Source of the DNA: Escherichia coli
Lineage (GTDB): Bacteria; Pseudomonadota; Gammaproteobacteria; Enterobacterales; Enterobacteriaceae
Assembly (NCBI RefSeq): GCF_022846255.1
Contig: NZ_AP025682.1
Length of the DNA stretch: 64,000 nt
Strand: one strand, 5' to 3'
This document shows, piece by piece, positions 54,001-57,000 of the stretch. Made by a program: the position numbers. Numbering within the stretch: position 1 is the stretch's first letter; every line of letters starts with the position of its first letter.

Positions 54001-57000
54001 CATGCGTTGTGGCGCTTATCGAGCAGATTAGGCGGGACGTTCAACGACCGATGCTGACAGGGATCGCCTTACCCGGCAGTATCTCGCCACTCACTGGCCT
54101 GATTAAAAACGCGAATATTCAGGTGATTAACGGTCATGCGTTACAGGCTGATTTGCAGCAATTGCTTGGGCAACCGGTGGTGATAGCCAATGATGGTAAC
54201 TGTTTCGCGCTATCAGAAGCTTGCGACGGTACCGGGCAAGATTATGACGTAGTATTTGGTATTACGCTTGGTACGGGCTGCGGCGGTGGCATTGCCATCA
54301 AGCAACGACCGTTTATAGGGGCCTGGGGAAATGCTGCCGAATGCGGTCATATCACGTTGCCAGGCTATACGGAGCAGGAAGATGGTCCATCAGTCAGTTG
54401 CTATTGCGGCAAACACAACTGCGTGGAGTCGTTTGTTTCCGGCAGCGGTTTTAGTGAACGCTATCAACAGATGACTGGTAACTTGCTCACTCCTGCGGCG
54501 ATTGTCACCCTGGCACAACGTGGTGATGCTTGTGCCATGCAGCAGGTGGCACGTTTTCGCCAACAGCTTGCCCGCACGCTGGCAACCATCGTTAACGTTG
54601 TTGACCCTGGCGTGATTGTGATCGGCGGCGGGCTTTCGAATGTGGAACTGCTTATCACCGATCTGAACGCAGAAGTCGCTCCACTGGTTTTCACCGATCA
54701 ATTCACCACTCCCATTGTAAAAGCACAGCACGGCGACAGTAGCGGAATGCGTGGCGCTGCCTGGCTTGCTATGCGCAACGGAGAAGCCAATGAAACGTTC
54801 ACAAATTAATTATGTTATTGATAAAGCACATGCCATTGCGCAGACCTTCCGCGTTTGTTTGCCAGAGTTCGCCTATTTTACGGTGGATGACTGGCTGCAG
54901 CGGGAACGGGATAACTGGCAAGAAGTGGTCGACTTACAGCTCGGTTGGGATATCACCGATTTTGGTCGTGGTGATTTCAACCAAACGGGACTAACACTGC
55001 TAACGATGCGCAACGGCGCGCTGGGGTCGGCGGCATATCCAAAACCGTATGCTGAGAAAATGTTGCAGATCCAACAAGATCAGCAGACTCCCTGGCATTT
55101 TCACACCCACAAAATGGAAGATATCCTCAATCGGGGCGGTGGAGACTTATGCATGCAGTTGGCCTGGGCCAACGAAGCCAATCTCTGTGATGATCAACGA
55201 GTCATTACCGTGAGTGTTGATGGTCAGCGGCGTACCATGAAACCTGGTGAAACGCTGGTGCTAAAGCCGGGGCAGGGCATTTGCCTGCCGCCGCGTCTGT
55301 ATCATCGCTTCTGGGCGGAAAAAGCGTTTGTTCTCGGCTGGGAAATCTCGATGGTAAATGATGACCAACACGATAATTATTTTCTTGAGCCGGGAGGACG
55401 TTTTCCGGCGATAGAAGAAGATGAACCGGTGAAATGGTTATTGTGCAGTGAGTATGGAATTTTGCGCTAATAACGGGGAACGCTAGCGCTGATATCCGCT
55501 AGCGTCCTTATTTTTACTGCACCGGCTCCGTCGACGTAACTTCACCACTGGAAACTACGCCCGCATTCATGGTTTGAGTCACTTGCTGCTTTGCGGCATT
55601 CACGGCATGCAATTGCCCGCTAACCGTAGGTTTCAGCGGGACATTGACCTGAATATCGCCACTGGCGGTAAGCTGAATATTGCCGTCGCCAGTCAACGGT
55701 AATTCAGGCCATCCCCAATGTTGCAAAATATTCACTGGCACACCGCGTCCATTCAGGCTGATATGGGTCTGACGTTGTGGCGTTTGTGAAACACTGGCGG
55801 TGGCTTCCAGAATGCCTTTTTCAGTAAATGCACTCAGTTCGCTGATATTCACCGTGCTGCTGTTGGCAGTTAGCGCCAGCGACGGACGACGGACATCAAC
55901 ACGATTAAACGTTGCGGCGGCGGCATTCAGATTCGCCGAGCCACTCCAGACGCCCCATTTATGATCGGTAACCAGCGTCAGATTGGCACCGTAACCATCG
56001 AGCGCGGTGAGCTGCCACGGGAAGTCAGGGTCGATATCAATGATCAGATTGCGGCTGGCGCTAAATCTCTTCAGTTGCAGGCTGTTTAACCAACCGGGTG
56101 TCGTTTCCATCCACAACTGTTGCCAGTTTTTTGGCAAGGTATATTCCAGTCCGGCAATTGCCGCATCATCGAGGATCAGCGTTTTCCCGTCGCGTTGCCA
56201 GTTTCCTGACGTTCTGACCATACCCCCTTCCCAGCGGCTGGTGAACTGGCGCAGTGCTACGCCCTGCGGGGAAAATTCCGCGTTTATAATCGGATCAAAT
56301 AAATGCAGCGAGCCATAAATAAACTCGCTGGCGTTCATCGACAGTTTGCCTTCCTGTGTCTGCCAGTCATCTTTACTGAAGGTCATGTTGCGCAAGCTGA
56401 GATCGAGGTCGGTCACCGCCCAGTCCGGACCTTGCAAACGAGCATCGATGACTTCCAGGCGACCAATCTGCAACGACGGGACAGAGCGTAATGGCGCAAA
56501 GAAATCGGTTAGCGATTTTTCGCTTTGTAGACGGATATCCGCCATGCGCAGGTTTTCCACTTGCCAGCTGCCGTCAGCGTTACGCTGCGCGTTTCCGGTT
56601 AATGTCCCGCGGGCGATGTCGGCACCCAGGTTAGTCAGCGTAACGCGATCGTTATCAATACTGCCTTCAATCAGTACATTGGTGGCAGGAACATCATTGA
56701 GCGAAAGCGATCCGGCACTAAACTGAATCTGCGCCTTCGTACCCAGCACTTTACCGGCTTCTGGTGACCACGGAACCACGCCGCCATTTACCCGCTGCGC
56801 GCTCAGTTTCCATTCGCTATTCGGGCTATTAAACGCCATATCACGCAGTTGCAGACGATCGGCTTTGAACGGTAGCGGCGCGGTCTGGTCGGTGAGATTC
56901 AGCGTCCCGTTTTCCAGCAGGATGGTATCGACATGGCGTGGTTCGGTCAGTTGCCGACTGCTTAGCGCAATGTCGACACTTTTTGCCACCAGGGTCGCGG

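What the first reader, a model, noticed from the sequence alone, without database searches (positions are those of the whole stretch)
55476..55516. yicH stop codon lies inside the T-tract of a terminator shared with the inserted sugar cluster
The hairpin and T-tract between the cupin gene and convergent yicH serve as a terminator for both transcription directions, and the yicH stop overlaps the T-tract. This suggests the insertion point of the accessory cluster abuts the original yicH terminator.
Basis: inference. Interest (0 to 1): 0.2.

Follow-up and report, generated by a model that had tools for sequence, protein, structure and literature searches.

The report
Ordinary terminator ending the frz operon
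This is an ordinary transcription stop signal at the end of the known frz sugar operon of pathogenic E. coli: its hairpin comes and goes with the operon, while its T-run, which contains the stop codon of the opposing gene yicH, is core DNA present in every strain.

Summary
A 9-bp perfect hairpin (55480-55505, extendable to 55477-55507) sits 6 nt after the stop of the last frz gene. It is followed by TTATTTTT (55508-55515), and the yicH stop codon (minus strand, 55516-55514) overlaps the last two T's.

Under a strict rule only two such sites occur in the 64 kb, against none in 30 simulated sequences.

The presence/absence breakpoint falls between the hairpin and the T-run (about 55506-55510). 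However, the hairpin belongs to the variable frz segment and is not an original yicH terminator. It is missing from 3815 frz-less E. coli genomes. There the yicH stop sits next to the yicI hairpin, which in this window lies 7.2 kb away at 48245-48279. Only the T-run and stop are shared.

Two-way termination is not supported by canonical sequence rules, because the yicH strand has no U-run after the hairpin.

"Insertion" is also unproven. The Citrobacter freundii complex has frz at the same site, and a divergent Escherichia lineage keeps the hairpin plus a remnant of the cupin gene.

The frz operon and its yicH/yicI location are already published. Interest is low.

The parts
54790..55470 (+). 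Last gene of the frz operon (cupin, D-lyxose/D-mannose isomerase family, 226 aa). Stop TAA at 55468-55470 and a second in-frame TAA at 55471-55473.
   Evidence: RefSeq annotation of a 99.9% identical genome; Pfam PF07385 on homologues; sequence.
55477..55507 (+). Terminator hairpin. Core stem 55480-55488 / 55497-55505 (9 perfect pairs, 6 G-C), loop 55489-55496, outer G-C pairs 55477/55507 and 55478/55506 with a bulged A. It belongs to the frz-linked variable segment.
   Evidence: Absent from frz-less genomes. Conserved with one compensatory pair across haplotypes.
55508..55515 (+). T-run TTATTTTT, the U-tract of the frz terminator. From about 55510 onward it is core DNA, shared with frz-less genomes (GATTTTTACTG in O157:H7, E. 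whittamii and others; GATGTTTACCG in K-12).
55514..55516 (-). yicH stop codon (TAA in sense), overlapping the last two T's of the T-run.
   Evidence: In WB61-type strains an earlier TAG 9 nt upstream replaces it, so the overlap is not constrained.
55514..57223 (-). yicH (AsmA-family protein, 569 aa), convergent with frz.
48278..55507 (+). Variable segment of about 7.23 kb, present in about 30% of complete E. coli genomes. It holds the frz regulatory region and eight genes: PRD/Mga-type regulator, PTS IIA, IIB and IIC, two class II aldolases, a ROK kinase and the cupin. It also holds the hairpin.
   Evidence: Published as GR27 / frz operon, 7227 bp, between yicH and yicI in BEN2908 (PMC12928451).
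48245..48279 (+). yicI-side hairpin, homologue of the single hairpin that fills the yicI-yicH spacer in frz-less genomes. Here it has a G>A / C>T compensatory pair and a longer loop, and it is cut off from the T-run (tail AAUAAUCUCA).
45914..48232 (+). yicI (alpha-xylosidase), the left core flank.

Best explanation
The feature is the Rho-independent terminator of the frz operon, built from two pieces with different histories.

The hairpin (55477-55507) travels with frz. The T-run that follows it (55508-55515) is mostly core DNA next to the yicH stop codon, and it is present whether or not frz is there.

Proposed mechanism: RNA polymerase leaving the cupin gene transcribes the stem-loop and then UUAUUUUU, and releases the transcript within or just beside the yicH stop codon. 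The stop overlaps simply because the convergent genes are only 43 nt apart. The overlap has no function of its own.

In frz-less genomes the same T-run sits behind the yicI hairpin and gives that hairpin its T-rich tail. In frz-bearing genomes the yicI hairpin is left without a U-tract.

For yicH, the same palindrome forms a hairpin 6 nt after the stop but has no U-run behind it. In that direction it is at best a weak intrinsic terminator. It may instead act as a 3'-end stabiliser or a collision-type terminator.

Shown here: the anatomy, the boundaries, the distribution and the conservation. Inferred: the termination activity itself.
For: Anatomy and a + strand-only terminator call. Stability is -19 to -21 kcal/mol, z about -3. 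The strict motif occurs at only 2 loci in 64 kb, against 0 in 30 simulations.

Position: 6 nt after the last stop of an 8-gene co-oriented cluster.

Distribution: single-copy and always at this junction in 1601 genomes. The hairpin is absent from 3815 frz-less genomes, while ATTTTTACTG is retained.

Conservation: the hairpin is kept in four other haplotypes, with 96% of cells paired against 29-42% for slid registers, and one G-C to A-U compensatory pair.

The O157-type empty-site hairpin is called terminator-like with the same T-rich tail, whereas the window's yicI-side hairpin is not.

The cluster is the published frz operon at yicH..yicI (PMC12928451).
Against: There are no transcript 3'-end data.

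The covariation is not statistically significant with 5 sequences: 107 of 500 shuffles reach the observed score. Compensatory change also preserves a DNA palindrome, so it does not prove an RNA role.

241 of 1601 frz-bearing genomes (E-1246 type) carry GTATTTAC instead of the T-run and fail the terminator rule. The Citrobacter spacer has a REP-like hairpin with no T-run. A strong U-tract is therefore not universally kept.

The right breakpoint is known only to within about 5 nt, because the sequence there is T-rich.
Confidence: 0.8

Rival explanations
1. One reading: one hairpin acts as a true bidirectional terminator and stops both frz and yicH transcription.
For: The palindrome folds equally well on both strands: -20.5 kcal/mol on the + strand and -21.1 on the minus strand. 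The genes are convergent with a 43-nt spacer. A prevalent class of E. coli bidirectional terminators between convergent genes is reported not to resemble intrinsic terminators and to need only a stem-loop plus polymerase collisions (bioRxiv 10.1101/2022.10.23.513370).
Against: On the yicH strand the hairpin is followed by UCCCCGUUAUUAGC. Neither the loose scan nor the strict scan calls a minus-strand site. By contrast, 6191-6215 in the same window has T-runs on both strands. No expression or 3'-end data exist for this locus.
Confidence: 0.3
2. The hairpin is the ancestral yicH terminator, and frz was inserted just upstream of it.
For: Two genomes of a divergent Escherichia lineage (CUPF09, SCPM-O-B-8794) have the hairpin next to yicH with no frz genes.
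Against: Those genomes also keep at least 24 nt of collinear homology to the cupin gene 3' end just upstream of the hairpin: 20 of 24 identical, and 0 of 500 shuffles score as high. They are therefore deletion remnants of a frz-bearing state. All other frz-less genomes lack the hairpin: 3815 E. coli, E. whittamii, E69 and E1V33. (E. fergusonii also lacks it, but its yicJI-spacer block appears imported from E. coli, so it is not an independent witness.).
Confidence: 0.05
3. The 9-8-9 palindrome is a DNA site, either a dimeric regulator operator or a recombination site that delimits the cassette, and not an RNA element.
For: It has perfect dyad symmetry. The compensatory change keeps the symmetry. 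The breakpoint of the variable segment lies at its edge.
Against: It lies at the 3' end of the operon, not near a promoter. It is single-copy, with no second site at the left junction. There is no recombinase or integrase in the segment. The outer stem varies in register while keeping its pairing, and includes G-U pairs, as expected of RNA.
Confidence: 0.05
4. It is a chance inverted repeat with no function.
For: The loose terminator scan is not enriched in this 2 kb: 3 found against 2.7 expected.
Against: The strict motif gives 0 hits in 30 simulated 64-kb sequences. The fold z-score is about -3. The hairpin is conserved across haplotypes that differ by about 15-25% in this spacer.
Confidence: 0.02

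Closest known systems
frz operon of extraintestinal pathogenic E. coli (Rouquet et al. 2009, J Bacteriol 191:4427, cited from PMC12928451; GR27 of strain BEN2908)
   Same: Same eight-gene content, same place between yicH and yicI, and same size (7227 bp reported; about 7230 bp here). UTI89 and Nissle match the junction at 100%.
   Different: Nothing differs at the level of the operon. I could not read the 2009 paper, so I do not know whether its terminator was already drawn there.
Canonical Rho-independent (intrinsic) terminators
   Same: GC-rich stem-loop followed directly by a U-run, a few nt after the stop of the last gene of an operon.
   Different: One-directional by sequence. The U-run is weaker (GUAUUUAC) in about 15% of frz-bearing genomes.
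Bidirectional terminators between convergent E. coli genes (Ju et al. 2019 class, as described in bioRxiv 10.1101/2022.10.23.513370)
   Same: A stem-loop in a short spacer between convergent genes, giving complementary transcript 3' ends.
   Different: There are no 3'-end data for this locus. The A-tract/U-tract symmetry seen in classical two-way terminators, such as 6191-6215 in this window, is missing.
The yicI-yicH spacer hairpin of K-12-type genomes, and the REP-like hairpins in the same spacer of Citrobacter and Salmonella
   Same: In every lineage examined, one or two hairpins sit next to the yicH stop between convergent genes.
   Different: They are different, non-homologous hairpins. 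The K-12-type hairpin is homologous to 48245-48279 in this window, not to 55477-55507.

Membership tests
Rho-independent terminator | Stable GC-rich stem-loop in the transcript | tested here: met
   9 perfect pairs (6 G-C) plus 2 outer G-C pairs; -19.3 kcal/mol for the spacer alone; z = -3.2.
Rho-independent terminator | U-rich tract immediately 3' of the stem | tested here: met
   UUAUUUUU directly after the stem on the + strand. Not met in the E-1246-type haplotype, which has GUAUUUAC.
Rho-independent terminator | Location just downstream of the last stop codon of a transcription unit | tested here: met
   The stem starts 6 nt after the cupin gene stop, and all eight genes are co-oriented.
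Rho-independent terminator | Measured termination (transcript 3' ends at the U-tract) | not testable with these tools
   No transcriptome data are available. Literature searches found nothing for this locus.
Classical bidirectional intrinsic terminator | A U-run after the hairpin on both strands (A-tract upstream, T-tract downstream) | tested here: not met
   The minus-strand tail is UCCCCGUUAUUAGC. Both scans call the + strand only.
Collision-type bidirectional terminator between convergent genes | Stem-loop between convergent genes, with overlapping 3' ends of both transcripts | tested here: inconclusive
   The geometry is met. The overlapping 3' ends cannot be tested. The class is described in bioRxiv 10.1101/2022.10.23.513370.
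frz operon (ExPEC) | PRD/Mga-type regulator, PTS IIA/IIB/IIC, two class II aldolases, ROK kinase and cupin, located between yicI and yicH | tested here: met
   Annotation of identical genomes and tblastn. Published location and size.
Horizontally inserted genomic island | Integrase or transposase, flanking direct repeats, tRNA target, atypical composition | tested here: not met
   No mobility gene in the segment. No shared word of 7 nt or more at the junctions. GC is 48.6% against 50.5-54% in the flanks; only the regulator/IIA/IIB part is low, at 40-43%. The same site is occupied by frz in the C. freundii complex, with flank-like divergence.

The most novel reading that the evidence does not exclude
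The yicI|yicH spacer may be a recurrent cassette-exchange spot in Enterobacteriaceae. E. coli and the C. freundii complex carry frz there, C. amalonaticus carries a PTS-EIICB/GH4/RpiR/MFS cassette, and many lineages carry nothing. The breakpoints would fall exactly between a terminator hairpin and a fixed T-run/stop codon. Under this reading, terminator hairpins delimit and perhaps guide the exchange, and each incoming cassette reuses the resident T-run to complete its own terminator.
Probability: 0.1. Interest if true: 0.35.

Novelty: already known. Interest (0 to 1): 0.1.

Why it matters
It matters little. The result corrects a small point of annotation logic. The frz hairpin is part of the variable segment, and the K-12 yicI/yicH hairpin stays on the yicI side. 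frz should also not be assumed to be a recent insertion, because the same arrangement exists in the Citrobacter freundii complex and a decayed copy exists in another Escherichia lineage. For anyone engineering or deleting frz in ExPEC strains, the practical consequences are these. Removing 48278-55507 recreates a K-12-like site. Deletions that take the T-run will damage the yicH stop. In frz-bearing strains yicI has lost its T-rich terminator tail, so yicJI read-through into frz is plausible (inference).

Tried and rejected
- Rfam scan of 55300-55700 at E <= 1: no family matched.
- Repeat or REP hypothesis: the 76-nt stretch is single-copy in every genome. This rejects it for E. coli, although the Citrobacter and Salmonella spacers do hold REP-like hairpins.
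- Target-site duplication or flanking repeats: nothing of 7 nt or more. Only TATCCG (direct) and AAATAA/TTATTT (inverted) are shared, which is at chance level in AT-rich sequence.
- The left-junction TAAATAATCTC looks like the reverse complement of the empty-site GAGATTGATTTTTA. This was noticed post hoc, is low-complexity, and was not pursued.
- Covariation as proof of RNA structure: only one compensatory pair, not significant.
- E. fergusonii as an independent 'empty' outgroup: rejected. Its yicJ-yicI-spacer block is 97-99% identical to E. coli while its yicH is 70-77% identical, so the block is imported.
- Literature on a yicH terminator: the search returned only irrelevant papers.
- Rouquet 2009 is not held in the library.
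- The genome-contig scan with YicH returned only 10 loci and missed E. albertii and E. marmotae type strains, so the gain-versus-loss polarity could not be settled.

Full report
**What is in the sequence**

The eight co-oriented genes at 48527-55470 are:
- a PRD/Mga-type regulator, annotated as BglG family;
- PTS IIA, IIB and IIC;
- two class II ketose-bisphosphate aldolases;
- a ROK kinase;
- a D-lyxose/D-mannose-family cupin.

They lie between yicI (45914-48232, +) and the convergent yicH (55514-57223, -).

The cupin gene ends with TAA TAA (55468-55473). Six bases later the stem ACGCTAGCG (55480-55488) pairs perfectly with CGCTAGCGT (55497-55505) around an 8-nt loop. Two further G-C pairs (55477/55507 and 55478/55506) lie across a bulged A. 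TTATTTTT follows at 55508-55515. The yicH stop codon is the complement of 55514-55516 and shares two T's with that run.

**Is it more than chance?**

- The tool's loose terminator pattern is not enriched in this 2 kb: 3 sites against 2.7 expected. It calls this site on the + strand only.
- The fold is -20.5 kcal/mol, z = -3.2.
- A strict rule (perfect stem of at least 9 bp, loop 3-8, at least 6 T in 8 within 2 nt) finds only two loci in the whole 64 kb, this one and 6191-6215. Thirty Markov simulations of the window gave none.
- The 76-nt stretch is single-copy, chromosomal, and always at the cupin-yicH junction in 1601 complete E. coli genomes.
- Rfam has no family for it.

**What the cluster is**

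It is the published frz operon of extraintestinal pathogenic E. coli. In strain BEN2908 it is listed as genomic region GR27, bounded by yicH and yicI, with a 7227-bp feature (PMC12928451). That paper cites Rouquet et al. 2009, which I could not open. UTI89 and Nissle match the junction at 100%.

**Where the boundaries are**

- 1605 of 5424 matching complete genomes carry the cupin-yicH junction. In the rest, homology to the window starts at query position 711 or 714, which is window 55510 or 55513.
- 3815 genomes instead have a contiguous K-12-type yicI-spacer-yicH site.
- In that 52-nt spacer, the yicI stop is followed by one hairpin, GCCGGGTACG-tctgagt-CGTACCCGGC. Then comes GAGATTGAT(G/T)TTTA, whose last three bases are the yicH stop.
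- Aligning the empty site to both junctions of the window shows that this hairpin is homologous to window 48245-48279, just after yicI. There it carries a G>A / C>T compensatory pair and a longer loop. It is not homologous to the hairpin of the finding.
- Homology on the left ends at G48277. On the right it resumes at about 55508-55510.
- Right-junction comparison:

| State | Sequence at the right junction |
|---|---|
| Window (frz present) | ...GCGTCC TTATTTTTACTG |
| Empty site: O157:H7, E. fergusonii, E. whittamii, E69, E1V33 | ...GAGATTGATTTTTACTG |
| Empty site: K-12 | ...GATGTTTACCG |

- The variable segment is therefore about 48278-55507 (about 7.23 kb). The hairpin is inside it. The T-run and the yicH stop are core DNA.

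**Consequence for the two hairpins**

In empty sites the yicI hairpin is followed by the T-rich core tail and is called terminator-like (O157 type). With an outer A-U/G-U stem it runs straight into UUUUUA. In the window, the yicI-side hairpin is followed by AAUAAUCUCA and is not called. The frz hairpin now sits in front of the T-run. Whichever hairpin lies upstream uses the same resident T-run. The overlap with the yicH stop is a by-product of a 43-nt convergent spacer. In WB61-type frz-bearing strains a CCGGC>CCTAC change creates an earlier TAG 9 nt upstream, and the stop leaves the T-run with no other change.

**Direction of termination**

The palindrome folds equally well on both strands. 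On the yicH sense strand, however, it is followed by UCCCCGUUAUUAGC, and neither scan calls a minus-strand site. The site at 6191-6215, by contrast, has T-runs on both sides.

A two-way intrinsic terminator is therefore not supported by canonical sequence rules. It cannot be excluded that the stem-loop serves yicH as a collision-type bidirectional terminator. That class is reported for hundreds of convergent E. coli genes and said not to resemble intrinsic terminators (bioRxiv 10.1101/2022.10.23.513370). It could also simply protect the mRNA 3' end. This part is inference.

**Conservation**

- Of the 1601 carriers, 1222 are at least 99% identical in the 76 nt, 136 are 95-99%, 241 are about 84.5%, and 2 are lower.
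- The 84.5% class (E-1246 type) reads GCGGGGACGCTAACG-ttgatatc-CGTTAGCGCCCGC-GTATTTACTG. Its core stem is kept through a G-C to A-U double change, and its outer stem is longer. Its tail is no longer a T-run, and the scan does not call it.
- Across five haplotypes, 96% of cells pair, against 29-42% in slid registers. With one compensatory pair the shuffle control is not significant (107 of 500).
- The hairpin is therefore conserved, the strong U-tract is not universal, and the covariation evidence is weak.

**Insertion or deletion?**

There are no island hallmarks: no integrase or transposase in the segment and no junction repeats of 7 nt or more. GC is 48.6% against 50.5-54% in the flanks, and only the regulator/IIA/IIB part is low.

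Three observations argue that the arrangement is old:
1. Two Citrobacter loci have yicJ-yicI-frz-yicH-xanP in the same order: a metagenome scaffold carrying a cupin protein labelled Citrobacter (species not assigned) and a C. freundii genome. On the scaffold, frz proteins are 76-96% identical to the window's and flank proteins 82-96%; the order alone is shown for C. freundii. Their frz-yicH spacer holds a different, REP-like hairpin without a T-run.
2. An Escherichia sp. with 95% yicH nt identity (MOD1-EC7003) has frz with a hairpin of the same family.
3. Two genomes of a lineage with about 89.5% yicH nt identity (CUPF09, SCPM-O-B-8794) lack frz, yicI and yicJ. They still keep the E-1246-type hairpin next to yicH, plus a collinear 24-nt match (20 of 24) to the cupin gene 3' end. 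None of 500 shuffles scores as high. That is a deletion remnant.

Against ancestral presence:
- E. whittamii, E69 and E1V33 have native-looking empty sites.
- One Salmonella genome carries a frz-like cluster elsewhere, beside an integrase fragment upstream of yicJ, and Raoultella has it in an unrelated context. frz has therefore moved at some point.
- The E. fergusonii empty site is not independent evidence. Its yicJI-spacer block is 97-99% identical to E. coli while its yicH is 70-77% identical.

Divergence between the window and K-12 rises to 91.5-92.5% in the 200 nt flanking both junctions, against a 97-99% background. This fits an old, recombining presence/absence polymorphism. I conclude that the polarity is unresolved, that at least one loss is documented, and that 'inserted accessory cluster' is an assumption.

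**Verdict**

This is a real but ordinary feature: the intrinsic terminator of a known operon. It belongs to frz, not to yicH. The only mildly interesting point is the composite build, a cassette-borne hairpin plus a resident T-run and stop codon. A related point is that the yicI|yicH spacer holds different sugar cassettes in different enterobacteria (C. amalonaticus). Interest is low, and the feature is already known in kind and in locus.

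Noticed in passing
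window 6191-6215: Perfect 11-bp GC-rich hairpin AAGGGCGGAGA-TCA-TCTCCGCCCTT with T-runs on both strands. It looks like a textbook two-way terminator and is the only other site in the 64 kb that passes the strict scan.
   Followed up: no
window 48405-48423: Terminator-like hairpin CTGTCCGGATTACGGACAG followed by ATTTTAGTAT, in the frz leader about 100 nt upstream of the regulator gene start. It could be a leader attenuator, or the end point for yicI read-through.
   Followed up: no
L025 (E. fergusonii GCA_020861595.1), yicJ-yicI-spacer against yicH: The region is a mosaic. The yicJ-yicI-spacer block is 97-99% identical to E. coli K-12, but yicH drops to 70-77% nt identity, with the switch near the yicH 3' end. 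yicH appears unusually divergent or recombinogenic.
   Followed up: partly
L027 (C. amalonaticus) 11735-16899; L020 (Salmonella) 3726-10867: C. amalonaticus has a different sugar cassette (PTS EIICB, GH4 glycosidase, RpiR regulator, MFS transporter) between yicH and yicI. One Salmonella genome has a frz-like cluster next to an integrase fragment upstream of yicJ, while its yicI|yicH spacer holds two REP-like hairpins.
   Followed up: partly
L005 (E. coli WB61) 9060-9075, equivalent to window 55520-55527: A CCGGC>CCTAC change creates an earlier TAG stop in yicH, shortening the protein by 3 residues and moving the stop out of the T-run.
   Followed up: yes
window 48065-48263 and 55508-55703: Identity to the K-12-type genome falls to 91.5% and 92.5% in the 200 nt next to the two junctions, against 97-99% further out. 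The yicH 3' end is also the most divergent stretch between two frz-bearing haplotypes (92.7%).
   Followed up: partly
window 48278-48288 against the empty-site spacer (L021 171-184): The left-junction sequence TAAATAATCTC resembles the reverse complement of the empty-site GAGATTGATTTTTA. The similarity is AT-rich and was noticed post hoc. The only shared 6-mer between the junctions is AAATAA/TTATTT.
   Followed up: partly
window 43045-44310; L004 8090-8748: An integrase-like ORF (43045-44211, minus strand) lies next to sequence matching the selC flank (window 44231-44310 matches L004). A selC-associated island therefore probably lies just upstream of yicJ in this window. In CUPF09 selC sits about 300 nt from yicH, with yicJ, yicI and frz gone.
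   Followed up: no
L026 (C. freundii) 11753-13340: This frz cluster has no ROK kinase gene called between the cupin and the second aldolase, unlike E. coli and the Citrobacter scaffold L016.
   Followed up: no
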